This document shows positions 7,277 to 64,000 of a DNA stretch of 64,000 nucleotides, one piece after another (positions within the stretch are counted from its first letter, which is position 1; every line of letters begins with the position of its first letter). The notes beneath the pieces were generated by a model that saw nothing but the letters and a program-made list of their open reading frames with translations, was not told the origin of the DNA and did not search any database. A program made the position numbers and the translations under genes. This stretch comes from Carcharhinus amblyrhynchos (lineage: Eukaryota): NCBI GenBank assembly GCA_965287045.1, contig OZ336871.1:97712001-97776000 (forward strand). Reading direction: 5' to 3'.

Positions 7277-9120
7277 ATTGCCCAATCCATCACGCAAACC
7301 AGCCTCCCATCCATTGACTCTGTCTACACTTCCCGCTGCCTTGGCAAAGCAGCCAGCATAATTAAGGACCCCACACACCCCGGACATTCTCTCTTCCACC
7401 TTCTTCCTTCGGGAAAAAGATACAAAAGTCTAAGATCACAGACCAAATGACTCAAGAACAGCTTCTTCCCTGCTGCTGTCAGACTGCCGGAAGATTGGAA
7501 AACGGCTAATGTTACGCCGTTGTTTAAGAAGGGTGGCAGGCAAAAGGCAGGGGATTATAGGCCGGTTAGTTTAACGTCTGTTGTAGGTAAAATGTTAGAA
7601 TCCGTCATCAAGGAGAAAATAGCGAGGCATCTTGAGGAGAATTGTTTGATAGGGCAGACTCAGCACGGTTTCGTTAAGGGGAAGTCGTGTCTGACGAATT
7701 TATTGGAGTTCTATGAGGATGTGTCTAGGTGTGGTGTTTCTTGATTTTCAGATGGCGTTTGATAAGGTGCCGCACAAGAGGTTATTACAGAAGGTCAGGG
7801 GGCATGGAGTTGGGGGTAGGGTGTTAGCGTGGATAGGGGATTGGCTGTCAAATAGGAGGCAGAGAGTGGGGGTCAATGGGTGCTATTCGGATTGGCGGTT
7901 GGTGACTAGTGGAGTGCCCCAGGGGTCAGTGCTGGGGCCTCAGCTATTTACCATTTATATAGATGATCTGGAGGAGGGAACCGAGTGTATGGTGTCGAAA
8001 TTTGCTGATGACACCAAGATTGGTGGAACGGCAAATTGTGCGGAGGGTGTGGAAAGTCTGCAGAGGGATCTAGATAGGCTGGGCGAATGGGCCAGGAACT
8101 GGCAAATGGAATTTAATGTTGGCAAGTGTGAAGTTGTCCACTTTGGTAGGAATAATGGTAGGAAGGACTATTACTTACATGGCGAAAAACTGCAGCATGC
8201 GACGGTGCAGAGGGACCTGGGGGTCCTTGTGCATGAGTCGCAAAAACCCAGCTTGCAGGTGCAGCAGGTGGTCAGGAAGGCGAATGGGATGCTGGCCTTC
8301 ATAGCGAGGGGGATTGAATATAAAAGTAGGGAGGTTTTGCTGCAACTGTACAGGGCACTGGTGAGGCCGCAGCTGGAGTACTGTGTGCAGTTTTGGTCGC
8401 CGCACTTACGCAAGGATATTTTGGCCTTGGAGGGAGTGCAGAGGAGGTTTACTAGGCTGATACCGGAGTTGAGGGGGTTGAACTATGAGGAGAGGCTGAA
8501 TAAACTAGGCTTGTACTCATTAGAGTTTAGAAGAATGAGGGGAGATCTCATTGAGACGTATAAGATGATGAATGGGATGGATAGGATAGAGGTGGAGAGA
8601 CTCTTCCCGCTCAGAAAGGACAGTAGGACTAGAGGGCACAGCCTCAAGATAAAGGGGGGGCGGTTTAGAATGGAGTTGAGGAGGAACTTCTTCACTCAAA
8701 GGGTGGTGAATCTCTGGAATTCTCTGCCCGTTGAAGTGGTGGAGGCTGCCTCGCTAAATATATTTAAGACGCGGGTTGATGGGTTTTTGATAAGCGAGGG
8801 GATTAAGGGTTAAGGGGAGAGGGCGGGAATGTGGAACTGAGACACGACAGATCAGCCATGATCTTACTGAATGGCGGGGCAGGCTCGAAGGGCTAGATGG
8901 CCTACTCCTGCTCTTTTTCTTATGTTCTTACTTTTGAATGGACTTACCTTGCATTAAGTTGATCTTTCTCTAAACCCTAGCTATGACTGCAACACTACAT
9001 TCTGCACTCTCTCGTTCCCTTCTCCGTGAGTGGTATGTTTTGTCTGTATAGCGCACACGAAACAATACTTTTCACTGTATGTTAATACATGTGACAATAA
9101 TAAATCAAATCAAATCAAAT
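7277..9120 (+). mobile_element. Rex1/Babar-like LINE 3' end (7277-7484 + 8929-9120) split by a CR1
   Basis: IIKDPTHPGHSLFHLLPSGKRYKSL..LKNSFFPAAVRL continues after the CR1; tail aataaa(tcaaa)n. Confidence 0.75.
7485..8928 (+). mobile_element. Young 5'-truncated CR1 LINE, RT ORF open for 366 aa
   Basis: ORF 7713-8813 with GVPQGSVLGP and FADDTK, intact to its stop; short ACT duplication at the junctions. Confidence 0.95.
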
Positions 9121-15405: not shown

Positions 15406-15550
15406 CAATCTCTGCTGTGGTGAAATCCAGGTGTTTATACTGATAGGCTATTCCCACTTTAGTTTCCACTTGTGGTCGTTTAAGTGTTGAGTATATTTTG
15501 CCTGGGCTGTTCTCATCAGGCTTTTCCAGCTTTGGTAGGCCACAACCCAT
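15406..15550 (-). CDS. RFTN1: Raftlin first coding exon (MGCGLPKLEKPDENSPGKIYSTLKRPQVETKVGIAYQYKHLDFTTAEI+G)
   Basis: Raftlin signature STLKRPQVETK; N-terminal MGC acylation motif; donor G|GTAAGT at 15406/15405; acceptor after a pyrimidine tract at 15562-15563. 48 codons + 1 nt and the ATG in exon 2 favour RFTN1 over RFTN2 (recalled human gene structures). Confidence 0.88.
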
Positions 15551-21969: not shown

Positions 21970-23180
21970 TCCTCTTGTGGGGCAATCTAGAACAAGACGT
22001 TGTAGTTTTAGGATAAGGGGTAGCAAATTTAAAACATAGATGAGGACAAACTACTTCTCTTAAAGGGTTGTTTATTGTTCAACAATGTTCATAGCTATGA
22101 ACATTGTCGAACAATACAGCAGGATATAGATAGGCTGGAAAATTGGGCAGAGAAATGGCAAATGGAATTTAATCCTGATAAATGCAAGGTGATGCATTTT
22201 GGAAGATCTAATGTAGGGGGGAGCTATACAATAAATGGTAGGGCCATCAAGAGTATAGAAACACAGAGGGACCTAGGTGTGCAAGTCCACAAATCCCTGA
22301 AGGTGGCAGCACAGGTGGAGAAGGTAGTGAAGAAGGCATATGATATGCTTGCCTTTATAAGATGGGGTTTAGAGTATAAAAGCTGGAGTCTGATGTTGCA
22401 GCTGTATAGAATGCTAGTTAGGCCACATTTGGAGTACTGCATCCAATTCTGGTCACCACACTACCAGAAGGACATGGAGGCTTTAGAGAGAGTGCAGAGA
22501 AGGTTTACCAGGATGTTGCCTGGTATGGAGGATCTTAGCTATGAGGAGAGATTGGGTAGACTGGGATTGTTCTCCCCAGAAAGGTGGAGAATGAGGGGAG
22601 ATCTAATAGAGGTGTACAAAGTTATGAAGGGTATAGATAGGGTGAATAGTGGGAAGCTTTATCCCAGATCGGAGGTGACGATCACGAGGGGTCACAGGCT
22701 CAAGGTGAGAGGGGCGAGGTATAACTCCGATATCAGAGGGACGTTTTTTACGCAGAGGGTGGTGGGGGCCTGGAATGCGCTGCCAAGTAGGGTGGTGGAG
22801 GCAGACATGCTGGCATCGTTTAAGAATTACCTGGATAGTCACATGAGCAGCCTGGGAATGGAGGGATACAAACAAATGGTCTAGTTGGACCAATGAGCAG
22901 CACAGAGTTGGAGGGCCGAAGGGCCTGTTTCCTGTGCTGTACTGTTCTTTGTTCTTGTTGTGAATCTGTGGAATTCACTACCCCAGAGTCTGGCAGATGT
23001 GGGAGTAAATTTAAGGATGTGATAGACTTTTTATTAGTAATGGATTGAAGGGTTATGGAGAATGGACAGAAAGTGGAGTTGAGGCTGAAATGAAATCAAC
23101 TACGATTTTATTGAATGGTGGAGCAGGCACAAAGAGCTGAATTGCCCACTTCTGCTCCTAGTTCTATGTTCCTATGTTCT
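21970..23180 (+). mobile_element. Older CR1 3' fragment (21970-22070 + 22958-23180) with a younger CR1 (about 22075-22957) inserted
   Basis: ORF 22075-22884 is a CR1 RT C-terminus; the host phrase agggttg|tgaatctgtggaattc is split across the insert. Confidence 0.9.
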
Positions 23181-45029: not shown

Positions 45030-47730
45030 GTACAACACAGAACATTAAAGCACAGTACAGGCCCTTTGCCTCTCGATGTTGCGCCGACCAGTAGAACCAA
45101 TCTAATGACCGTCTAACCTAAACTATTGCAATATTATCCATATGTCTATCCAATGACCATTTGAATACCCTTAAAGTTGGCAAGTCCACTACTGCTGCAG
45201 GCAGGGCATTCCATGCCTTTATTACGCTCTGAGTAAAGAACCTACCTCTGACATCTGTCCTATATTTATCACCCTTCAATTTAAAGCTATGTCCCCTCGT
45301 GTTAGCCATCACCATCCAAGGAAAAAGGCTCTCACTGTCTATCCTATCTAATCCTCTGATCATCTTGTATGCTTCAATTAAGTCACCTCTTAACCTTCTC
45401 TCTTACAAAAACAACCTAAAGTCCCTCAGCACTTCCTCATAAGACTTTCCCACCATACCAGGCAACATCCTGGAAAATCTCCTCTGCACCCTTTCCAATG
45501 CTTCCACATCTTTCCTATAATGCGGCGACCAGAACTGTACGCAATACTCCAAGTGCAGCTGCACCAGGGTTTTGTACAGCTGCAACACGATCTCATGGCT
45601 CCGAAACTCAATCCCTCTACCAATAGAAATTAACATACTACTGTATGCCTTCTTAACAACCCTATCAACCTGGGTGCCAACTTTCAGGGATCTATGCACA
45701 TGGACACCAAGATCTCTCTGCTCATCCACACTACCAAGAGTCTTTCCATTAGCCCAGTACTTTGTAATCCTGTTACTCCTTCCCAAGTGAATCACCTCAC
45801 TTTTCCACATTAAACTCCATTTGCCACCTCTTAGCCCAGCTCTGCAGCTTATCTATGTCCAGCTCTGCAAACTGCAACATCTATCCGCACTGTCCACAAC
45901 TCCTCCGACTTTAGTGTCATCCAGAAATTTACTAACCCATCCTTCTACACCCTCATCCAGGTCATTTATAAAAATGACAAACAGCAGTGGCCCCAAAACA
46001 GATCCCTGCGGTACACCACTAGTAACTGAACTCCACGTTGAACATTTCCCATCAACTACCACCTTCTGTCTTCTTTCAGCTAGCCAATTCCTGATCCAAA
46101 CCGCTAAATCACCCTCAATCCCACGCATCTGCATTTTCTGCAGTAGCTTACTACAGGGAACGCTATCAAACGCTTTATTGAAATCCATATACACCACATC
46201 AACTGCTTTACCCTCATCCACCTCTTTGGTCACCTTCTCAAAGAACTCAATAAGGTTTGTGAGGCACGACCTACCCTTCACAAAACCGTGATGACTATCC
46301 CTAATCAAATTATTTCTCTCCAGATGATTATAAATCCTATCTCTTATAATCCTTTCCAAAACTTTGCCCACAACAGAAGCAAGGCTCACCAGTCTATAAT
46401 TTCCAGGATGGTCTCTACTCCTCTTCTTGAATAAGGGGACAGCATTTGCTATCCTCCAGTCTTCTGGTACTATACCTGTAGACAACGATGACATAAAGAT
46501 CAAAGCCAAAGGTGCTGCAATCTCCTCCCTAGCCTCCCAGAGAATCCTAGGATAAATCCCATCCAGTCCAGGGGATTTATCTATTTTCACACTTTCTAGA
46601 ATTGCTAACACCTCCTCATGAACCTCAATCCTATCTAGTCCAAAAGCCTGCATCTCAGTATTCTTGACTACATTGACTTTTTCCTGTGTGAATACTGATG
46701 AAAAATATTCATTTAGTGCCTCTCCTATCTCTTCAGACTCCACACACAACTTCCCATTACTATCCTTGACTGGCCCTATCTTTCTTTTATTCCTGACGTA
46801 CCTACAGAAAGCTTTAGGGTTTTCCTTGATCCTACGTGCCAAAGACTTCTCATGTCCTCTTCTGGCTCTTCTTAACACTCTTTAGGCCCTTCCTGGCTAA
46901 CCTGTAACTCTCCAGTGCCCTAACTGAGCCTTAACGTCTCATCTTTACATAAGTCTCCTCCTTACTCTTCACAAGTTCCTTAGTAAACCACAGTTCCCTT
47001 GCTCGACCACTTCCCTGTCTTGACAGGTACATATTTGTCAAGAAAATGCAGTAGCTGCTCCTTGAACAAGCTCCACATTTCAAATGTGCCCATCCCCTGC
47101 AGTTTCCTTCTCTAACCTATGTATCCTAAATCTTGCCTAATCACCTCAATTTCCTTCCCCCAGCTATAACGTTTGCCCTTCAGTATATACCTACCCCTTT
47201 CCATCGCTAAGGTAAATGTAATAGAATTGTGGTCACTATCACCAAAGTGCTCACCTACCTCCAAGTCTAACACCTGGTCTGGTTCGTTACCCAGAACCAA
47301 ATCCAATGTGGCCTTGCCTCTTGTTGGCCTATCTACATACTGTGTCAGGAAACCTTCCTGCACACATTGGACAAAAACTGATCCCTCTAAAGTACTCGAA
47401 CTATAGCTTTTCCAGTCAATATTTGTAAAGTTAAAGTCCCCCATAACAACTACCCTGTTACTCTTGCTCCTGTCCAGACTCATCTTTGCAATCCTTTCCT
47501 CTACATCTCTGGAACTTTTCGGAGGCCTATAAAAAAACTCCCAGCAGGGTGACCTCTCCTTTCCTGTTCCTAATCTCAGCCCATACTACCTCAGTATGGG
47601 AGTCCTCATCAAGCATCCTTTCTGCCACCATAATACTGTACTAACCATGCCATACCTCCCCCTCTTTTACCACCTTCCCTGCTCTTACTGAAACATCTAA
47701 ACCCCAGAACCTGCAACAACATTCCTGTCC
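45030..47730 (-). mobile_element. Long CR1 LINE (EN C-terminus, RT, 3' tail) with several frameshifts
   Basis: VVVMGDFNF..LDLVL..GDSDHN (EN); GVPQGSVLGPLLF, KFLDDTK (RT); ORFs spanning 45118-47483. Confidence 0.95.
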
Positions 47731-50189: not shown

Positions 50190-52683
50190 AAACTTTAATG
50201 CAGTACTTTATTCAGAAGTAAGTTTTCATAGTTGAATAAACAGAATCATCTTCAAGCCAATATACTTAGACAGGATAATCTACTGTTGCTGCCACTCTAA
50301 CTCATTACAATGGGTCAAAAATATCTAAATAGGACAGAAATACACTCAAGAACATACAGGTTTCAGATAAACATGTTTCAGATAAAAAAGGCCAACAAAA
50401 GGTACACAAAATTCACAGAAGTATGAAAAATTTGTAAAACGGAGTCATTTATATTTTAAACATGAAAAGCTTTTGCAAACAATGACATTCATTTGACATT
50501 TCAACTCAAGACAAGAAACAAATAAAACTTCATACATATATCTTAAACCTACAAAATTTGTTGTCTTCATGACAACTTATTTTTATCAATATGGAAGGTG
50601 GCTTGTTTTAGTTTTACGCAATGTTTTAAAGTTTCTTTACTAACCAAGTTTGAGATTTTTTTTTCAAATCTTATAGAAGTTTATATTTTTCATTGATTTT
50701 TACTAGATAAATGAAGGAAGTACTGACCCTGCTAAGCTCTGGAAAATGTGATCCCTAATTCAAGTTAAAATTGGAATTGTCATTTAATATGTTCTATACA
50801 CAAAAATGATTTTGGTTTTGGTGTCACAATATTAATCACAAGCCCAAGTTGGTGCCAGATTACCAAACAAGGTCCAGCATGGTTAAAACACAAGCTCGAA
50901 TTAACCTATATTTTATGGAGCAGAAAACTCCAATATTCAGTTCACTGCAGGTTCACCATTTTATCTAAAAATAATATTCAAACCAAATATTTTTCCTTGA
51001 ATGTTTGCTTTAAAGAAAATCAATTTTAAACATTGAAACCAATTAAACATTACCTGAATTAGATGGGCAAGTCAGAAGCAAAGAGTTTAGTTAAAATTAG
51101 GAACTTTGAAGATGGGTATTAATTAAACTGGATTAAAAATCTGTGCAAGATGGCTTTTCACTGAAAGAAAAAATCTTTAATTCTAAGATTCTGGTAATTC
51201 AGGCAGTGCAAAGCATTCAAAACACGATTTATAGACAGGGCAGCCCAGAATTTACAAAATAGATAATGGTTAGATGAGTAGAAGTAAAGAAATTCCAACT
51301 CAACAAAAAGAAAATGGTGCGAGCAACTTAACTTTGGACACATACTCTGTAAAATGCAAGCTGCTTGTAGCCTCTAGTTTCATTTGTGAGCAAAGCCGTT
51401 ATTAGTTTACAGTGGCTAAATTAAAAAAGATGTAATTCCAACATATTAAAAATAGACCCATTACATTACTGTGGGTCACAGTTCAATTGCTTTTCTTGTG
51501 AAACTATAAGACACTGTAAAAGAGAATATGTTAAAAATGTTGGACAGAACTGAGATTTAAATGAGGGCTGAAGTGATTGTTTAACTATTTAGCCCTATAA
51601 AGGCAAAAGTCAGTTCATCCGTATAAAATGGTGTGGATATAAAATACAGGATCAGAATCACATGATATGTAGTGAAATCTCAATATTTGGTCAGAAGAAC
51701 ATCCCCAAATACTGATGCACATTTTCCTTGCCTAACAAATAATTGAAATTCTACTACAGTATGTGATATCTTATACCACGATGATAAAATCTATATTACC
51801 TACAGTTATGGTAAAGCTTCATTTTAACTTTTCTGTAGCTGCTTAAAGATATGAATTTTTAAATTAGTGTATTGCAAGTATTGCTCATCAGCAAGCTGAC
51901 ATCACTATATTTCTCTCTGGAAATCAAACAAAAAGCTTTATGAAGAGAAGAATATCACAAATCTGAAATAAAAACGAAATGTGAAGCAAATGGCTGTTCC
52001 CCCCACAAATGCTGACTGACATACTGCATGTCTCCAGTATTTTGTTACAAAGGCTTGTTTGAACTAGCATTTCAACACAAATGTACATCAGGATTTTACA
52101 TTTTCTTATAATTTAGCTTTGGGGCTCAAAAATAATTACATTCTCCTGAAAATATGAAAGCATCACAAGCGAGGCAATTTTACCATTACTTTTAACTGTC
52201 ATTAGCATTTTCAGTTAACTCAGACTTTACGTAATAAAAAAGGCAAACTGTAATAAGGAAATAATTTAACCTTGTGGTTTATATGACATTCATAAACCAA
52301 TTATGCTTTGCTATTACAGCTAATATCAGAACTTACAAGATAAATTACAATATTAGGACATACTAATCCTAAGTTTGTACATCAGAACTGAAACATGTCA
52401 GAGAAATACAAAGTGGGTCTACTGTCAATCAAGTAGATATAAGAGTGATTCAACTGGAATGTGACCAAGAACACACTTATTAGTGCTTCCAGTAGGAAAA
52501 TGGATTTTAGTTTTACATGATCAAAAGTGCTACATGGCAAGACCAACAATAATAATGTAGCCCAGTCTTAAGGATCAACACAGTATTGATATTAGCAAAG
52601 ATCAGATTTGAAGATTAGTTAGTTTTATCCACCCTATAAACAGGACCAGTTACTTCACTTCAGATTCTGCTGGACTACTTCTT
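50190..52683 (-). other. DAZL: Probable DAZL 3'UTR
   Basis: About 2.5 kb, nearly repeat-free and U-rich on the minus strand, directly after the terminal exon stop. Confidence 0.5.
50207..50212 (-). terminator. Candidate poly(A) signal AATAAA
   Basis: Minus strand TCTGAATAAAGTACTGCATTAAAG followed by GT-rich sequence; further AATAAA at 49874-49879 and 49859-49864. Confidence 0.45.
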
Positions 52684-52713
52684 CTAAACTGTAAATCTGT
52701 GTACTCTTTTCTC
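52684..52713 (-). CDS. DAZL: Probable DAZL terminal coding exon (EKRVHRFTV*)
   Basis: Strong acceptor ttttgctatttttctttcag|GAG; peptide resembles the recalled tetrapod DAZL last exon DKRVHHFRRS; upstream of RFTN1 on the same strand as in mammals; only about 10 codons of evidence. Confidence 0.55.
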   Translation of the reverse strand, partial: EKRVHRFTV

Positions 52714-52959
52714 CTGAAAGAAAAATAGCAAAACGAATGAGCAAATTTAAAGTATGCTTTAACACTACCTTTCTGCTATAATTTAAGTACAACTAACATT
52801 AGGCCAAGACCTCAGGACACTAATAGTATAAATACTTAATTATTTCAGACTTACCACACCTACAATAATTACCAATAAGATTAGCTCAGTATCTTGCTGA
52901 GATGAGTCAAGGAATTGAATAATTTCAGTACACCAGAAATTGCAGTAAGGTAACCAAGA

Positions 52960-53470
52960 CATAACATAGCATCTTTACTATAATAAAGCATCCCAAGGTG
53001 CTTCATAGGAGCATAATGAAATAAAGTGACACCAAATCACATAAGAAGCCATTAGGTCAGCTTGCTCAGAGGTAGATAAGGAATGTAAAGGAAGGCGCCT
53101 ATACAGAGAAGGAATTCCAGAGGCAAGGTCTTCAGCAACTGAAGCCACCAACGTGGAACAATTAAAATCAGGAACGTTCAGGAGTAATAGGACTCAAGAA
53201 GGAAGGGAGGAAGGTGGTCATGTAGGAATTTGAAAACAACGATCAAATCTTTACATGCAAGACATTGCTTGACCAGGAAACAAAGTAGGTCAGTTAGCCC
53301 AAGGGTTATAAGTGAATTGTACTTGGTGCAAATATAGACATGGGCACCTGAGTTTTGGATGACTTCAAGTTTACAACAGGTAAATTTGGGAGACTAGCCA
53401 CATGTTTATTGGAATAGTCAAGTCTAGAAGTAATAATGAATGAGGGCAACGTCAGCATATGAAGCAGAGA
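52960..53470 (-). mobile_element. Old L2 LINE 3' fragment
   Basis: catcccaaggtgcttcatagga tail; ggaatagtcaagtctaga. Confidence 0.6.
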
Positions 53471-54627
53471 AACAACCCTGATTATACTGCGGATTATGAC
53501 TAGATTAATTTAAATTTAATTTTAATTTAAAAGCGTGAAAAGGTTCTATGATGCCAATATTCCAAGTGAACATAAGCAGAGAAAGGAACCCCCCTGCCGC
53601 AGCAAAACAGACACGTCCTCTGTCAGAGGACTTCAGAGGCCTGCTGACACTTGTGGCTTCTGACAAAAAGGGAAACCTCTGCTCCAGAATGGAGCGCTAT
53701 TGCAATTTGATAGCCTGACTGCTGTTCAGGCATCATGGTGATTAGAATGAACAGGCTACTTCAAATTTTCACAGCTGACAGACAGGAATGAAGATGTTGA
53801 TCAGCGTGATCTTCAGATCTATCAGAGATAGTCCAACGAGGAGACCTCTATCTCAGAGAACACAGTAGCAAAGTTAACTCCTTGCTCCCAGCTTGCGCCC
53901 ACCAGACCCCAGTACCCTTGGGGCACCCAACCTACCTCCATAATGCCAAGGCTCCAGGCCAGGGGCAAGTGCATCATTGGCACTGTCAAAACACATGGCC
54001 TGAGGAGTTGTCTGCAGGTGGAGGGGTGACCCAATATTTGGGTGGTGGTTGTGATTGGGGGGGGGGGGGGGCAGTGGAGACAATGTGTTGCCCCTCTATG
54101 CTAAGGGGTTTGCTGGTGCTTCCCTGGGCCCTCAAGGTTCAGCTGATGACCGAAGTCCACCCTGTTCATTTCCAGGGACTCGAGAAAGATGACAGCATGA
54201 TAGAATTGAGTGTTGTCCGTGTATATTTCAATGAAAAGTCATCAACGGAGTCAAGAATGAATCTGGGAGTAATGCTGCAAGATTGGAAGAAAAATTATGC
54301 TGGAAATGCTGTTTCATGACCAGGCAAACGAAGCAAGGGCAATGGCACCGAATTAGACAGTGGAGGACAGACCTTAGTAGAGAATTGTGTAGTCAAGTGA
54401 GCCAAAAACTGCTGACATAAGTGCCACAGGAATGCCACTTGTCACGAGTAGGGCCAGTACAGTGCTGTAACCAGGGCTGAAATCAAACATGGGTTGCAGT
54501 AAATAACAGCACATACTTAGGAGATGATAACCAGTTTTAGAATTGAGTGGAAAATTTTGAAAGAAACAAGGGCGATACACAAAGATCGAGAATAATGTGA
54601 TTTAGTATTGAGCATGAAAGATTGCTT

Positions 54628-56897
54628 TGATGTAGAGATGCTGGCATTGGACTGGGGTAAACACAGTAAGAAGTCTCAACACCAGGTTAAAGTCCAACAG
54701 GTTGATTTTTGGTAGCACAAGCCACTAGCTTTTGGAGCACAGCTCCTTTATCAGGTGATTAGGAGCTCTGGTAACAAACAGGGCATATAAAGACACAAAC
54801 TCAATTTATAAAATAATGGTTGGAATGCAAGTCTTTACAGATAATAAAGTCTTAAAAAGGTACAATGAGTGGAAAGGGTTAAGCACAGGTTAGAGATGTG
54901 CAGCGTCTCCAGCCAGGACAGTTAGTGAGATTTTACAAGCCCAGGAAAATCATGGAGGTTACATGTGTGACGTGAACCCAAGATCCTGGTTGAGGCCATC
55001 CTCATGCATGCAGAACTTGGCTAACAGTCTCTGCTCAGTGACTCTACGTTGTCATGTGTCGTGAAGGCCACTTCGGAGAACACTTACCTGAAGATCAGAA
55101 GCCGAATGCCCGTGAACGCTGAAGTGTTCACCAACAGGAACGGAACAGTCTTGCGTAGGTGATTGTTGGGCAGTGTTCATTCATCCGTTGTCATAGCATC
55201 TGCACGGTCTCCCCAACGTACCATGCGTCAGGACATCCTTTCCTGCAGTGTTTTAGGTAGACAATGTTGGCCAAGTTGCAAGTGTATGTATCATGTACCC
55301 GGTGGATGGTGTTTTCACATGAGATGATGGCATCCGTGTCGATGATCCGGCATATCTTGCAAAGGTTGCTGTGGCAGGGTTGCGTGGTGTTCTCACTGTT
55401 CTCCTGAAGGCTGGGTAGTTTGCTGCGAACAATGGTCTGTTTGAGGTTGTACGGTTGTTTGAAGGCAAGAAGTGAGGGTATGGGGATGGCCTTGGCTAGA
55501 AGTTTGTCTTCATCAATGACACGTTGAAGGCTCTGGAGAAGATGTCATAGTTTCTCCGCTCCAGGGAAGTACTGCACGACGAAGGGTACTCTGTCCACCG
55601 TGTCCTATGTTTGTCTTCTGAGGAGGTCGGTGCAGTTTTTCCCTGTGGCGCACTGGAACTGTCGATCAATGAGTCCGTTGGAACATCAAGGACGATCACC
55701 TCAGCACTTCACTGTACTGCAAGCCCACAGATAACCTTACGATGCTCCACTTCTTCAGCTTCCACCCTAAAACACATTAAAGAAGCTATCTCTGACAGAC
55801 AAGCCCGCCGTATACACAGGATCTGCTCAGATGAGGAGCATCGCTACAAACAACTTCAGGTGCTGAAAGATGCCCTCATAAGAACAGGATATGGCGCTCG
55901 ACTCACTGATCGACAGTTCCAATGCGCCACAGCGAAAAACTGCACTGGCCTCCTCAGAAGACAAATACGTGATACAGTGGACAGAGTACCCTTCGTCATC
56001 CAGTACTTCCCTGGAGCGGAGAAGTTACGATATCTTTGGAGCCTTCAACGTCATTGATGAAGACAAATATCTCACCAAGGCCATCCCCACACCTCCACTT
56101 CTTGCCTTCATGCAACTGCACAACCTCAAACAGTCCACTGTCCACAGCAAACTACCTAGCCTTCAGGAGAACAATGACCATGACACCACACAACCCTGCC
56201 ACAGCAACCTCTGCCGGATGTGCCAGATCATCGACACAGATGCTATCATCTCACGTGAGAACACTATCCAGCAGGTGTACACGGTACATACTCTTGCAAC
56301 TCAGCCAACATTGTCTATCTAATACGTTGCAAGAAAGGGTGTCCCGAGGCATGGTACATTGGGGAGACCATGCAGACACTACGACAACGGATGAACACCG
56401 CTCGACAATCACCCAGCAAGACTGTTCTCTTCCAGTTGGGGAACACTTCAGTGGTCATGGGCATTCGGGCTCTGATCTTCGGGTAAGCGTTCTCCAAGGC
56501 AGCCTTCATGACACCCAATGCAGAATCACTGAGCAGAGACTGTTAGCCATGTCCTGCACATGAGGACGGCCTCAACCGTGACCTCGGGCTCATGTCACAC
56601 TATTTGTAACCCCCATGACTTGCCTGGGCTTGCAAAAGCTCACTAACTGTCCTGGCTGGAGACAATACACATCTCTTTAATCTGTGCTTAACCCCCTCTC
56701 CACTCACATTGTCTGTACCTTTGAGACTTGATTACCTGTAAAGACTTGGATTCCAATCATTATTTTGTAAATTAAGTTTGTGTCTTTATACGCCCAGCTT
56801 GTGAACTGAAATCCCACTCACCTGATGAAGCAGTAGGACCAGGAAAGCTGGTGATTTGTGCTACCAAATAAACCTGATGAACTTTAAACTGGTGTTC
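54628..56897 (+). mobile_element. Penelope-like element with an inverted 5' copy (54628-55677 minus; 55678-56897 plus)
   Basis: HLSTSLY.KPTDN (RT end), RIHRICSDE, VYLIRC..CPEAWYIGET (GIY-YIG endonuclease); about 1-kb inverted arms. Confidence 0.9.
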
Positions 56898-56914
56898 TTT
56901 TGGAAAGATTGCTT

Positions 56915-58363
56915 CCCATACATTAATCAGAGTAGGGATCACAGGCATTTTCAGGTTTTGAAGGTTGTAACAAGGATCAGTGCTGAGGCATCAAGCTGTT
57001 TACAACTGTATTAATGACCTGGGCAATGAAAGGGTAATATAGCCAGGTTTGCTGACAATACAAAGCTAGACGGGAATGCAAGCTGCAAGGAGGTCACAAG
57101 GATGTTACATAGAGATACAGATAGTTAAGTGAGTGGACAACATGTGACAAGCGTAACGTAGGGAAGACAGAGGTTATTCACTTGGTAGTACGAAATAATT
57201 TTTTGTTTAAAAAGTAAAACTTTTAATTGCTGATGCTCAGATTTAGATGTTTTCATAGAAGGAACAACATCGGCAGGCACAGCAGGCAATTTAGGCAGAA
57301 AATGGCATGTTGAGCTTTATTGCAAGGGATACAATTCATCGCTGCAGATACTGCTGAGCACAATATCCTAGGTTTAATCCTCATTAGCTACTTCAAATGA
57401 CCTTTCCTCGATCATATGGCCAGAAGTGGGAACATTCACTGATGAGGACAGTATTCAATACAATTCATAGTTCCTCAGTGAGGTTATTCATGCCCAGAAG
57501 CAGCAAGCCCTGGGCAATCAGGTTTCAGCTAAGTGGCAAGGAACATTCTGGTATGTCACACAATGACCATCTCCAACAAGAGTCTAACTGCTGCCTCTTG
57601 ACATACATTGGTATTACCACAGAATCCCTCATGTCAATGACCCAAAACTGGACTAATCATAAAATAGTGTCTAGAATAGCAGGTTATGTATTCAATTCAC
57701 TACCTGATTCTCTAAAATTGTTCACCATCTACAAGGCACAAGTCACGAGTGTGATGTAATATTCTCCATTTTCCCAAATGATTGCAGTTTCAGCAACATT
57801 CAAAGCTTGACATTATCCAGGGCAAAGCAACCTTCTCGACAGACATCTTATCCACTGCATTAAACATTTATTCTCACCACTATCACTACCTGTGGTCAGT
57901 GTGCACTATGAGATAGTTCTAAGAACTGCCAAGGTTCCTTTGATGGCATCTTTCAACCTCTACCACCTTGAAGAACAAGGGCAATAGATTTGAGGAATCA
58001 CCACCAGCTATACATTCCCATCTTAAGGGCACACCATTATGACATGGGATTCTAATCACTGTTCCTTCACTAAGTCAAAATCTAGAACTCACTCCTCTAA
58101 CAGTACTTTGGTTATGCTCCTAATAGGAATTAGGTAGAAGATGTCATTGAGCGCAGAGGTAGAGGGTATGGTTGATGTATTAAATGAATGCTTTGCACCT
58201 GTCATTACCAAGGAGATAGATGCTACCCAGCGACAGTCGATGAAATTCTATCCCTAGCAGATTCAAAATTTATAAGGAAGAAGGATGAAGTGTTGAGTAG
58301 ATTGTCGGTACTGGCCGCTAACAATGCACTGGGACCAGATGAGATGCAACCAATGGTACTGAA

Positions 58364-58405
<42 letters not shown>

Positions 58406-59790
58406 AATTAGAGGTGTGCTGGCCATAAAATGCAGTCTTCTCTGGACTCCAGGGAAGTGTCAGAGGGCTGGAGAATTGCAAATATTAAACCCTTGTTTAA
58501 AAAAGGTTGTAAGGGTAGCCTCAATTACAGGCCAGTCAGCTAATCACTAGTTGAGCTTCCAGAAATAATTATTCTGGATTGAATTAGCAGTTATGTGGAA
58601 AAATATGGGTTATTAGGAAGAGCCAGCTTGGATTTCAAGGGAAAATCATGTTTAACTAACTTGGACTATTTTGATGGTAGAGTCAATGAGGGGGAATGCT
58701 ATTGACATTGTATTGAAAGTCTTCTGAAAGCCCAAGTGCACAAAGTCACTTGAGAAAAGTTATGAGTCATGGAATAAAAGGGACAGAAGCAACATGGATA
58801 CAAAATTGGCTGGAATAAAAGGAAACAATGTAATGTCAATAGATATTTTCTAGGCTGGGGGTGTAGTGGTGCTCACCAGGAGTTGGTATTGGAACTCACG
58901 CTTTTTGTAATAATTATGAATGATTTAGATCATGGGTGCAGGGGACAGTTTCAGAGATTGCAGATGATACAAAACTTGGAAAGTATTGTAAACTGCGAAG
59001 AGGACAGTGCAGGACTTCAAAAGGGCATATACAAATTGACAGAACGCAGGTATGTGCAGATGAAGTTCACTGCGGAGAAGCACAATTTTTTAAAAAATTA
59101 ATTGATGCATTTTGTTAAGATAAACATGGAGAGAATATAAAACAAGGGGTGCAATGGCATGAGGGACTTGGGTGTATACGTGCATATATCATAAAGTGGC
59201 AGGATAGGTGAACTGCAGAGAGCATTTTAGTATTCTGGGCTTTGTTAATTGGAGCACAGAGTACAAAAATAAAAAGAGATAATGCTGAACTTGTACAAGA
59301 CACGAGCAGACCTCAGCTGGAATATTGATATTGTATACAGTTCTGAGCGCCACATTATAGGAAGGATGCAAATGCATTAGAGAGAGGGTTATAAGAATGG
59401 TTCAAAAACATCAGTTATGAGGATAGATTTGAGGGGTTGGGATTATTTTCCTTGGAGATTGAATAGAGATGTTCAAAATCATAAAGGGGGGAGGTGGGGG
59501 ATTTGAACAGATCAGATGGGGAGAAACTGTTCCTCCTTATAAAAGGAGGAAGAATGAGGTCACAGAATTTGCAAAGAAGCAAAAATGGTGCAAGTAAAAC
59601 TTAAGCGGTTCGGGTCTGGAAGTTGGAGGAAGCTGGTTCAATCGAGGCATTTAAGAGGCATTAGATGATTATTTGGAAGAAATAATGTGTATCGGTACGG
59701 GGATAAGACAGGGAAATGGCACCAAGCCAAAGTTTGGAGAGCTGATGCAGATACGATGGAGCAATGAGTCTCCTGCGCCATAATTCTGTG
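56915..59790 (+). mobile_element. Degenerate CR1 fragments of two families
   Basis: tttgctgacaatacaaag; LFTIYKAQV; IADDTKLG; CR1-like tail at about 59700-59790. Confidence 0.7.
58365..58406 (+). repeat. (GAAA)n microsatellite
   Basis: About 10 tandem GAAA units. Confidence 0.95.
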
Positions 59791-60841
59791 GACATATCTG
59801 TACTACTTGGATTGCAGTTGATCAGGAAGGCATCTTATCATCTCCTTGAAAAGAAAATTAAGGAAGGGCAATTAATACTGGCTTAACACATTGAAAAAAA
59901 CATGATAAGCAGTTTAAAAACAATCTCAATTGTCTACTTAATGCTTAAGACCACTTGTTAAATTATTTTGTCTTGACTTGAGCAACACGGTACCAATGAT
60001 ATGCAGGGTGTAAGTGGATAAGACTTGTTTCTTTTAATCACCAATGCTCTCAGTCTGACTTACCTGTTCCCAACCTTAGTTCCTACCACATTCCAATGCA
60101 CTGTCCAGGCCTTGCATTTACAGGTATCCAACAAACAACTCTTCATAAGAGCCCACCCATTTCTGCTGCTGTTGTTTGGCAGCAGGTCACAATTCCAACC
60201 ACTCCAGCTCCAAATTCTGCCAGCCACCTACTATTTTTACAATGTTTCCATCTATGTCACCAGTGCTTTTTGTTTACCCAATTCCAAAATTAAAATAATC
60301 TATTCCTGCTACGTTATTCAAAAAGTGAGAAGAATGAAAAATTCAAAAGCAAGCAGAAAATTCTAAAAAGACAAGAAAAAAAGATACAAAAAACAAAATC
60401 ACAAGGAACTTTCATAGCATGTCTCCAAGTCCCTGGACAATGGCATGGAAGATTCACACACTGACTTCCCTGAGCAGGGAAAAGTTATTTCAACAGCTTG
60501 AAAACGAAAATCCTGCCTCCATCCTGTGCTCTTAGCATTGAGGAGACTGTGGTTAAAAGCAGGCAGTGGCCTAATTAACCTGCCAATCAGGGTCAAACCT
60601 ACTCAAGCAAGGAGAGGTTCGAATTCTGGTAAACTAACTAAAGGTTTATTAACAGAATAACTATGAACATTACAGAACAAGGGAAACAGTCTCAACTCCA
60701 CAGGCACAAAACTCCGACACCAGGAACAAGCCCAGGGAAAACTAAATGGAACTGCAATTCTGCTCCCAATTGGACCAGTGGGTCACATGATCCTTTCAGG
60801 GAATCAACCTTTAAAGGGCAACAGCACCACAATAACCCAAG

Positions 60842-61045
60842 ATAAATGCAAAATACTGTGGATGCTGGAACCTGAAACAAAACAGAAAAATGCTGGAAAA
60901 TCTCAGCAGGTCTGACAGCTTTGGAGCAAGAATACAGCCAACATTTCAAGACAAAAGGTCATCTAAAGGTGAAACACTGGCTCTATTCTCTCTCCACAGA
61001 TGCTGTCAGATATGCTGAGTTTTCCAGCATTTATCTGTTTTTGTT
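60842..61045. mobile_element. Palindromic Penelope-like mini-element (second family)
   Basis: aaatgctggaaaatctcagcaggtctgacagc ... gctgtcagatatgctgagttttccagcattt inverted arms. Confidence 0.65.
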
Positions 61046-61289
61046 ACAATCGCCCAAGCCCCAGTCTCCTCCCAGTCACAAGGAAGCCCCACTCCAATGT
61101 ATCTGTCCTCTCAAAAATATTCCCACAGATCCCCAGCAATGGGCAACTGCTGCCAAATTTTCACTCCCAAAGGACAGCCAGGTAGCCAAAATGTTTTATT
61201 TAAATTAGGCACCACCTTCAAAATCTAACTCTCACACCATTCCCATCATAGATCTTGCATCACAGTAGAAGTCAATATCTCTAATGATA

Positions 61290-61620
61290 TTGCACAGAGC
61301 AGGAATAGGTGGTCAGCCCCTTGAGCCTGCTCTGCCATTTAATACGATCATGGCTGACTTTACCTCAACTCCACTTACCTGTCTTTTCATCATAACTCTT
61401 CAAACCCTTACTAATTAAAAATGTGCCCATGTCTTTCTTAGATTCACTCAAAGCCCAAGTATCCACCATGCTCTGGACAGTGAATTCCAGACTTATGATC
61501 TTTGTAAGAAGAAATTTCTCAATTTCTGTATTAAATCTGCTATATTGCCCTATGAGTGAAGGAATATCCTCTCCATGCCTATTCTGTCAATCCTCCTTAT
61601 CATCTTGTTTTGTTGCAATG
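61290..61620 (-). mobile_element. Old CR1 3' fragment
   Basis: gagcaggaatagg..cagccccttgagcctgctctgccatt..atcatggctga. Confidence 0.7.
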
Positions 61621-62364
61621 CTCCCAAGAATGTGAAGCTCAATAACAATAACATACATTATACAAAAATTTGGAATGTGGGTCATGCATTCTATTCAAAG
61701 TATTTTCTATAAGCATTCATATGCTAAGATATACCAGTTCACCTGTTAGGGTTCAAAGCATCAATAGGTGGCACTGTAATGAATCTTTGTAAAATAACAA
61801 ATTGTCCATCAAGTCAGTGTTCTGAAGCTTGTTAACCCTACGCTTAAAACATGCCTATAGCTCCATCTGCTGTTTAACATTTTAAATTTAGACCCCTAAC
61901 TGCTTAAAAACAGATTTCACTCCACCAAGCTCAAAGTCCTGATGTGATACCCAGCCCTACAATACCTACTGTAGGACATGTTGCAATGACTTTTCACCAA
62001 AAGCATCTAGTTTTCCAATGTCTGTGGTGTGGACAAATTAGTGGCATCAAACACGAAGGACAGTAGCATTTTCTACATCTGACTAATTCAAACAAATTTC
62101 AGCTCTTGACAAGGACAGCAATTTGCATTTTCCACCACAGAAGACAATAACTATGCATAAAAGGAGCTCAGGCAGTGAGAGCTATTAATCTTACATATTC
62201 AAGATGAGATAGCTGATGACCAGTTAACAATGACTAGTTCACGGTTTGTATGTTTTAGAATGCTACTTTTAGTTTTGGGAAATAAAGTGTTGACTGTGGA
62301 GAATCTGGTTGAGAAACTGACGAGCAACGCTGGGGAGAATACAATTCAAACAAGTTTGGGAGTT

Positions 62365-63098
62365 TGTTACCGGCAACAGGGTGGGAGTCACCTAAAGGTT
62401 AACAGTTAGAAAAATAATAGAAAAGTAATAGAACAGCAAGTGGGCTTCTTAGCAAAAAACTGGTGACATGACATTTTACATTATTTCCAGTATAGAATTA
62501 AGTTATTCTTGTGGCCTCCCAGAATTGTGGAAAGTAATTAGGAAGCAGTTAATTTGTGTTTTATTTGCAGCACAGCCATCAGGCAGGTCTGATTAATGTT
62601 TGGAGAAGCAGCTAGACTGTCAGCTTTGGGTCTTGGGTAGTTATAGCACCTATGGTGTTTAAAATTACTGCACAGGAGTTGTAGTTAAGATAAAACTAGC
62701 ACTGTGGAATCCAGGCTTTTGAGGTCAGTGAAGAAGTTGGAAGAAGCCGAAAGCTAACAGAAGGACCCTAGTGAAATTTTGTATGAGAATAGCTGAAGCA
62801 TCAAAGAGAACTCAAGTGAATGCCACAGAGCTGGGATATACCTTTTGAATTGGTCCCAGGAAAGTGAATGACTGTTAAAAGATTTTTTAAGGGAACTCTA
62901 GTGGAAGTAAATAGCACAAATTTTTATAAAGTTGATGTTTAACTTGAATTATTTTTGATGAATAAAGTTTATTTTTGTTAAAGAAACATGAAATATCTGC
63001 TGATTGTGTCTATTTAACTATTACCACTGAAATCAAATCATTAACACAATAGTGAAAAAAGCCAAAACTTTGTGAAATACATACCTGTAGGTGTAACA
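62365..63098 (+). mobile_element. Solo LTR-like element
   Basis: TGTTAC...GTAACA inverted ends, AATAAA at 62961; TSD not convincing. Confidence 0.45.
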
Positions 63099-63199
63099 TT
63101 GTTGTAGCTCTGTGAAAGATTATGATAAGTGGGACCTTCAGAAGTTTGAAGGATTCAAAACTGCACTGAAATTTCACTTTTGACCTGTTGTAAATGATT

Positions 63200-63505
63200 G
63201 GGGCGGCACAGCGGTTAGCACTGCTGCCTCAGTGCCAGGGACCTGGATTCAATTCTGGCCTCATTCAGTGTGTGAAGTTTGCATGTTCTCCCTGTGTTTG
63301 CGTGGGCTTCCTCCAGGTGCTCCGGTTTCCTCCCATATGCCAAAGAAATGCAGGTTAGGTGGATTGGCCATGTTAAATTGCCCCTTATTTTCAACAGGAT
63401 TAGCAAGGTTACGCGGGGTTATGAGGGTAGGGCCTGGATGGGATTGTGGTTGGTGCAGGCCTGATGGGCCAAATGGCCTCCTTCTGCACTGTAGAGATTT
63501 TATGA
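63200..63505 (+). mobile_element. HE1-type SINE
   Basis: gggcggcacagcggttagcactgctgcc..ggtgctccggtttcctccca..gggccaaatggcctccttctgcactgt. Confidence 0.88.
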
Positions 63506-64000
63506 ATTCTTAAATATTTCTTCTGATTTTCACTCCCCCCCAAACTTCCTATCATCTTTTTAAATTGTTCTATTGCTTTTACTTGCCTGATTGCCTTTTA
63601 AGTATGGCAAAGAACAGGTCCGTTAGGTCGAGAACTAATGGATGTGTGGGCCGTTCAACTACTGCAATTATTCATCTGGTCTCACTGTGCACCACTCTCA
63701 CCTGTACTCGAAGTCCTCCTGTTCTTTCCTTCTTCTAGGTGCCATCTTAAAAGTGTGGAATAAAATAAGCTTGCTGGCTAAAGACTTATAGAGTTCTGCT
63801 ATTGTTCTGATTTCTTCTGAAGACTCTGACCTCCAGCTACATTAGTGTGAACATCTAGCCAACTATTACCAAGTATTATACATGATACTCAAAAAAGTAT
63901 TGGGAAATAAATTTACACTCAAAAGACAATTTTCACATTGCTGGAGCAAAGTCCATAGTAGTGAGATGAATTTGAATTAGAGAAAATAAATATAAAACTG

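What the first reader, a model, noticed from the sequence alone, without database searches (positions are those of the whole stretch)
52650..52735. DAZL-like last exon with its conserved C-terminal motif split across two frames and a new internal acceptor
Seen: after a strong acceptor the exon reads GAG AAA AGA GTA CAC AGA TTT ACA G TTT AGA AGA AGT AGT CCA GCA GAA TCT GAA GTG AAG TAA. Frame 0 gives EKRVHRFTV*. Removing 7 nt (ACAGTTT, a near-copy of the preceding ACAGATTT) gives EKRVHRFRRSSPAESEVK*. Known (recalled): the tetrapod DAZL last exon encodes DKRVHHFRRSRAMLKSV. Inference: a micro-duplication truncated the tail and also created TTTACAG|TTT, a possible second acceptor at 52689/52688 that would give FRRSSPAESEVK* in phase 0, so two alternative C-termini are possible.
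Basis: partly seen in the sequence, partly recalled or inferred. Interest (0 to 1): 0.7.

Follow-up and report, generated by a model that had tools for sequence, protein, structure and literature searches.

The report
Sharks' short DAZL tail, old frameshift
This is the ordinary last exon of the shark germ-cell gene DAZL: seven extra letters, shared with other sharks, rays and a chimaera, end the protein early and leave a piece of the longer tail of land vertebrates stranded out of frame, and the proposed second splice site that would rescue that piece is likely not used.

Summary
The sequence observation is right. The exon at 52713 (minus strand) is the last coding exon of an intact DAZL gene, reached in phase 0, and it reads EKRVHRFTV*. 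The 7 extra letters are not an assembly error and not recent: public models from 13 of 21 cartilaginous-fish species, a chimaera included, end in this tail, and spliced contigs from three other organisms keep the 7 letters and join at 52713. The shifted frame holds QFRRS, which matches the coelacanth and amphibian tail, so it is a real relic; beyond those five residues it matches no better than chance. The AG at 52689 scores like an ordinary intronic AG (71.5th percentile, against 99.9 for the true acceptor), none of 55 models and none of three RNA-like runs use it, and it is best read as the old glutamine codon rather than a new site. Whether sharks gained or bony vertebrates lost the 7 letters is unresolved, because ray-finned fishes stop one exon earlier. 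Rare use of the inner site is not excluded. Low interest.

The parts
52684..52713 (-). Coding part of the DAZL last exon (exon 11 in my numbering, first coding exon not located), EKRVHRFTV* in phase 0
   Evidence: same tail in 26 of 55 cartilaginous-fish models
52714..52740 (-). Strong splice acceptor of the last intron (14 of 16 pyrimidines, CAG)
   Evidence: 99.9th percentile; three RNA-like contigs stop fitting the DNA here while a DNA contig runs on
52692..52698 (-).
   Evidence: no 7-letter gap in any contig
52689..52690 (-). Inner AG proposed as a second acceptor; weak, likely unused; last two letters of the CAG codon of the relic frame
   Evidence: 0.89 bits, 71.5th percentile, 6 of 16 pyrimidines, 4 AGs just upstream; no use seen
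52650..52691 (-). Relic +1 frame QFRRSSPAESEVK*, overlapping the stop codon and the start of the 3' UTR; only QFRRS resembles the bony-vertebrate tail
50207..52683 (-). 3' UTR, end inferred from the first AATAAA (50212); covered by RNA-like contigs over the part tested (51900-52715)
52714..64000 (-). 3' part of the 16 kb last intron; exons 2-10 lie 5 to 77 kb beyond the window's end (G000:C2:97780968-97853347)

Best explanation
This is the normal last exon of shark DAZL: exon 9 or exon 10 is spliced in phase 0 to the strong acceptor at 52713, which is predicted to end the protein with EKRVHRFTV, and the QFRRS piece in the next frame is likely an untranslated relic of one 7-letter indel older than the split of sharks and chimaeras. 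Shown: gene structure and phases in this genome; an exon 9 to exon 11 junction in one contig of a related organism; the same tail in models of 13 species. Inferred: the age (from the species that share it), that the inner AG is the old Gln codon, and that it is silent or used only at noise level. The direction is open; I lean about 65:35 towards a slippage duplication in the cartilaginous-fish ancestor, because it explains why a near-tandem repeat sits there. The C-terminal variation that the data do show comes from exon 10, which has a GC donor and is included, skipped, trimmed or read through.
For: Ten exons join into an 873-base frame with no internal stop, all acceptors AG, donors GT except GC at exon 10, last intron phase 0. 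RRM groups with named DAZL, 100/100, apart from a BOULE gene on another contig. 26 of 55 models, 13 of 21 species, end in KRVHRFTV; two further species' models cross the same exon in other frames and keep the 7 letters. Contigs of runs X17, X20, X22 (three organisms, three studies) fit up to 52715 with no 7-letter gap and no joint at 52688; the depth bins equal one contig per run; the X17 loose end equals the last letters of exon 9, 30 of 30. The +1 frame drifts: the white-shark model differs at 3 of 20 residues, one inside FRRS, and X20 lacks 3 letters there, while 8 of 9 frame-0 columns are invariant in 13 species against 63 of 131 in the region before it.
Against: All protein evidence is predicted gene models; 29 of 55 models end otherwise, among them the chimaera entry with an NP_ accession. 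Contigs drop rare variants, the runs are only guessed to be RNA, their tissue is unknown, and none is from this organism. The acceptor model rests on 9 sites, and the true acceptor of exon 9 also scores low (85.8th percentile). The inner AG is kept in at least two other sharks, and the one indel seen in the relic frame keeps the frame. The 13 species in the invariance count were chosen because they had this tail.
Confidence: 0.85

Rival explanations
1. One reading: the inner AG at 52689 is a real alternative acceptor, and a minor isoform ends in FRRSSPAESEVK, which keeps the relic under selection.
For: TTTACAG is a legal acceptor end and the phase fits. The AG is kept in the white-shark and Mustelus models. 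QFRRS is still recognisable after a very long time. The 3-letter loss in X20 keeps the frame.
Against: 0 of 55 models and no contig in 3 runs use it; 71.5th percentile, purine-rich, 25 letters behind a far stronger site. The isoform would lose KRVH, the best-kept half of the motif. QF and the first R overlap frame-0 codons and the stop codon, which can explain most of their conservation. R to S inside FRRS in the white-shark model.
Confidence: 0.07
2. The +1 frame is reached through the main acceptor from a phase-2 donor 23 letters into intron 10, giving a longer tail that ends in LQFRRSSPAESEVK, as one public white-shark model has it.
For: Model P0017 is built this way; the GT exists here at the matching place, phase 2; the GC donor of exon 10 is read through in 10 of 55 models.
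Against: 1 of 55 models; the donor GAA|GTATAG is far from consensus (consensus from general knowledge); no read support was seen; 3 of 20 residues differ between that model and this genome.
Confidence: 0.04
3. The short tail is the ancestral state of jawed vertebrates, and the long tail arose when a 7-letter deletion between the two near-repeats pulled 3' UTR into frame in the bony-vertebrate line. This changes the history, not how the shark gene works; the number given is for the direction alone.
For: No outgroup was found: ray-finned fishes stop in exon 10, BOULE-type proteins lack the motif. The relic frame shows no similarity past QFRRS. Deletions between short repeats are common (general knowledge).
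Against: It needs the near-tandem repeat to exist beforehand; a duplication explains it directly (inference). The relic frame ends 12 residues after and including F, close to the 11 of 85 of 99 long tails, though open frames of that length are common (36%).
Confidence: 0.35
4. The 7 letters are an assembly error or a private mutation, or the exon belongs to a pseudogene.
For: None found.
Against: DNA contig X1 matches with 0 differences and 0 gaps (may be the source sample); 15 of 21 species' models show the 7 letters; single copy in this genome; intact upstream frame.
Confidence: 0.01

Closest known systems
Cartilaginous-fish DAZL gene models (for example XP_038653747.1 Scyliorhinus canicula, XP_007895787.1 Callorhinchus milii, XP_072909049.1 Hemitrygon akajei)
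   Same: Same exons at 75-100% identity per exon and the identical tail KRVHRFTV.
   Different: Nothing of substance; none of these models uses the inner AG.
Coelacanth, amphibian and amniote DAZL
   Same: Same last-exon start (KRVH-type motif) in 99 of 110 proteins; Q before F in coelacanth and the three amphibian rows, as in the shark's +1 frame.
   Different: They run on in frame through FRRS for 9 to 14 residues; the shark tail leaves that frame after the H and stops.
Ray-finned-fish Dazl (sturgeon, paddlefish, gar, bowfin, teleosts)
   Same: Share the exon-10 motif VDxGVQT.
   Different: The protein ends a few residues after that motif; no last-exon motif was found in any fish row, so the tail is dispensable in that lineage.
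BOULE (BOLL)
   Same: Related RRM; also lies upstream of a Raftlin gene in this genome.
   Different: A separate gene on contig C11; falls in the other clade, 100/100.

Membership tests
DAZL (DAZ family) | Single N-terminal RRM of the DAZ type | tested here: met
   Exon 2 hits solved DAZL chains 2xs5, 2xs2, 2xsf; RRM exons at 100% identity to shark DAZL models; PF00076 on the closest model
DAZL (DAZ family) | Groups with DAZL, not BOULE, in a tree, with BOULE present separately | tested here: met
   18-row RRM tree, 100/100 split; own C2 gene with 11 named DAZL, own C11 gene with 5 named BOULE
DAZL (DAZ family) | Neighbour of a Raftlin gene on the same strand (synteny recalled from human, not from a call) | tested here: met
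   Raftlin first coding exon at window 15416-15550, minus strand, downstream; RFTN1 versus RFTN2 not distinguished
DAZL (DAZ family) | DAZ repeat (PF18872) | tested here: inconclusive
   No match in the genome or in P0005, but the family is also not listed for bird, reptile, amphibian or fish DAZL; a Y/P/Q-rich exon 7 sits at the expected place
DAZL (DAZ family) | Germ-cell-specific expression and RNA binding | not testable with these tools
   Tissue of the runs is not on record; a preprint uses Dazl reads as a germline check in bamboo shark gonads (passage)
Functional alternative 3' splice site | Pyrimidine tract and AG-free zone ahead of the AG | tested here: not met
   6 of 16 pyrimidines and 4 AGs, against 9-14 and 0-1 for the ten true acceptors
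Functional alternative 3' splice site | Transcripts that join at the site | tested here: inconclusive
   None in 55 models or 3 contig sets; raw reads were not available and contigs drop rare forms
Dual-coding exon | Second frame kept by selection | tested here: inconclusive
   Leans against: 3 of 20 residues changed in the one comparable model, a 3-letter loss in X20, no similarity past QFRRS; no codon-level alignment across species could be made

The most novel reading that the evidence does not exclude
Cartilaginous fishes have kept a dual-coding last exon in DAZL for over 400 million years: the main acceptor gives the short FTV tail, while an inner acceptor or a phase-2 donor behind the weak GC site of exon 10 restores the FRRS tail in some germ-cell stage.
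Probability: 0.1. Interest if true: 0.5.

Novelty: new member of a known kind. Interest (0 to 1): 0.18.

Why it matters
Modestly. It shows that the end of DAZL exists in three forms in jawed vertebrates: long in lobe-finned fishes and tetrapods, cut by a 7-letter frameshift in cartilaginous fishes, and absent in ray-finned fishes. The FRRS half is therefore likely not needed for the core germ-cell function, which is a useful prior when judging variants or antibodies aimed at the last exon. The intact gene beside a separate BOULE also contradicts the 2010 statement that Dazl is absent from cartilaginous fishes (PMC2904765), but public annotation and a 2025 preprint already treat shark Dazl as given. 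If the second frame were used after all, it would be a very old dual-coding exon in a germline regulator.

Tried and rejected
PF18872 search of the genome found nothing and its control rang nowhere, so it says nothing. No RNA holder listed on record for the stretch; this is no evidence on expression. A base-by-base table of the exon in the more distant organisms was cut short (46 rows and 128 loose ends not shown), so the synonymous sites of the exon, the exon that X20 and X22 join from, and organisms A to F remain unexamined. No bichir, lungfish, lamprey or hagfish DAZL came up in three protein searches and one representative search (each lists only its best 120-150 rows), so polarity stays open. 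The Atlas gave no hit over 0.84 for the C11 exon; the tree was used instead. I considered that exon-10 skipping removes a dynein-light-chain site: a review reports the DAZL-dynein link (PMC3329454, passages), but PMC6607443 lists both human DAZL peptides, one from each of the last two exons, with N, which I read as non-binding (table rows seen, header not seen), and the primary paper is not held; left as a lead. A PDZ-type reading of the FTV end rests on recalled consensus only and was not tested. U-rich DAZL-type motifs are barely richer in the UTR than in the intron (5.6 against 4.4 per kb). Three look-ups of earlier findings returned nothing. No structure or complex was predicted: a 9-residue tail gives nothing to fold.

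Full report
Observation. Frame 0 gives EKRVHRFTV*, the +1 frame RKEYTDLQFRRSSPAESEVK*. The window lies in a 2.9-Gb genome at G000:C2:97712001-97776000, and the exon has one copy there. The organism is a shark, judged by the similarity of its proteins.

The gene. I fetched 200 kb beyond the window. Named DAZL proteins place nine further exons there, and joined with this exon they give 873 bases, no internal stop, AG at every acceptor, GT at every donor except GC after exon 10, and phase 0 before the last exon whether exon 9 or exon 10 precedes it. The first coding exon was not located. In an 18-row RRM tree the gene falls with 11 named DAZL proteins, split 100/100 from 5 named BOULE proteins and from a second gene of this genome on contig C11. 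A Raftlin gene follows on the same strand, first coding exon at window 15416-15550; that this is the human arrangement is recalled. So the exon is the DAZL last exon.

The 7 letters are real and old. A DNA contig of run X1, which may be this assembly's source, covers 51900-53200 with no difference and no gap. Of 55 cartilaginous-fish DAZL proteins, 26 end in KRVHRFTV; by the names given these are 13 of 21 species, among them sharks of several orders, five rays or sawfish and the chimaera Callorhinchus. The white-shark and Mustelus models cross the same exon in the other two frames and keep the 7 letters. The other 27 models are partial or end in other exons or in intron read-through, among them the chimaera entry with an NP_ accession. 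All are models, not sequenced proteins. Sharing between chimaeras and elasmobranchs puts the event over about 400 million years back (date from general knowledge).

Which acceptor is used. Runs X17, X20 and X22 (organisms G, H, I; three studies; RNA is the tool's guess, tissue unknown) each give one long contig that fits from the UTR up to 52715, which is 52713 plus the AG shared with the upstream exon's end, and then leaves the DNA, while the DNA contig runs on. The loose end of X17 equals the end of exon 9 at 30 of 30 letters, so it is a spliced form that skips exon 10. No 7-letter gap and no joint at 52688 is listed, and the depth of the two bins over the exon start equals one contig per run. 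Contigs drop rare forms, so this shows the main form only. The upstream letters of X20 and X22 were not shown. None of the 55 models uses the inner site. With a weight matrix from this gene's nine other acceptors, 52713 scores 12.6 bits (99.9th percentile of 5659 AGs in the gene) and 52688 scores 0.9 (71.5th); it has 6 of 16 pyrimidines and four AGs in the 25 letters before it, against 9-14 and 0-1 for true sites. The matrix is small, and the weakest true acceptor scores 3.0 (85.8th).

The relic frame. Of 110 bony-vertebrate proteins listed, 99 have the long tail. So the better alignment pairs the shark's CAG TTT with the QF of coelacanth and amphibians, and the AG of the proposed acceptor is then the old Gln codon, not a product of the event (inference). 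QFRRS beats all 1726 UTR control windows, but the 8 residues after it are matched by 44% of 1346 windows, and 909 of 2501 UTR starts are open for 13 codons. Part of QFRRS overlaps frame-0 codons and the stop, which can hold it in place without a second product. The +1 frame also drifts: 3 of 20 residues differ in the white-shark model, one inside FRRS, by changes that would be silent or lie after the stop in frame 0 (codons inferred), and X20 lacks three letters at 52678.

Direction. Sturgeons, paddlefish, gar, bowfin and teleosts end a few residues after VDxGVQT, inside the exon-10 equivalent, and no fish row has the last-exon motif. BOULE-type rows lack it too. With two lineages and no outgroup, insertion in cartilaginous fishes and deletion in bony vertebrates cannot be told apart; I lean 65:35 to insertion because of the near-tandem repeat.

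Where the variation is. Among the 26 models with this tail, 11 come from exon 10 through the GC donor, 11 skip exon 10, 2 use a GT six letters earlier and 2 come from other exons; 10 further models read through the GC donor. Exon-10 skipping also appears in 3 of 15 listed squamate models. This, not the inner AG, is the C-terminal variation with support.

Literature. Ten full-text searches showed no title or abstract start on the DAZL tail of cartilaginous fishes; most subscription journals are not covered and no supplements were read. I read passages only: PMC2904765 found no Dazl in elephant shark and placed its origin in bony fishes; bioRxiv 10.1101/2025.03.13.642935 uses Dazl reads as a germline check in bamboo shark; PMC3329454, PMC3995210 and PMC6607443 concern the dynein light chain; PMC9492771 and PMC5080839 added nothing on the tail.

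Verdict. A correct and careful observation of an ordinary gene. The short tail is the lineage-wide, already annotated end of cartilaginous-fish DAZL; the stranded QFRRS is a small evolutionary footnote that I did not find in print; the second acceptor is unsupported. Interest 0.18.

Noticed in passing
G000:C2:97780968-97781063 (L001:4968-5063), exon 10: Exon 10 ends in a GC donor with a GT six letters before it; public models include, skip, trim or read through this exon, and the X17 contig skips it. It carries VDRGVQT, the one C-terminal motif shared by all three vertebrate lineages.
   Followed up: partly
window 52710-52715: The acceptor is a tandem CAG GAG; the second AG (52710) scores 6.9 bits (97.6th percentile) and would drop one Glu in frame. 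No use seen.
   Followed up: partly
window 54700-56870: A long inverted repeat in the last intron: nine arm pairs of 42-149 letters at 80-89% complementarity around a 224-letter centre. It looks like two head-to-head copies of a decayed mobile element; two ORFs there hit no Pfam family. It could form a long double strand in the pre-mRNA.
   Followed up: partly
window 15416-15550, minus strand: First coding exon of a Raftlin gene, 37 kb downstream of DAZL; a second Raftlin gene on C11 has BOULE upstream, so the two gene pairs look like old duplicates.
   Followed up: partly
window 51900-52715: The 3' UTR aligns at about 90% identity over 800 letters with contigs of two more distant organisms.
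   Followed up: no
window 7695-8813, 45853-46881, 22033-22884: Reverse-transcriptase fragments (PF00078; the third below the cut-off), ordinary retroelement remains.
   Followed up: no
G000:C2 about 97799388-97799430 (L003): A weak match (69% over 13 residues) to an extra small exon that some Pristiophorus models place between exons 9 and 10; its acceptor was not established here.
   Followed up: no
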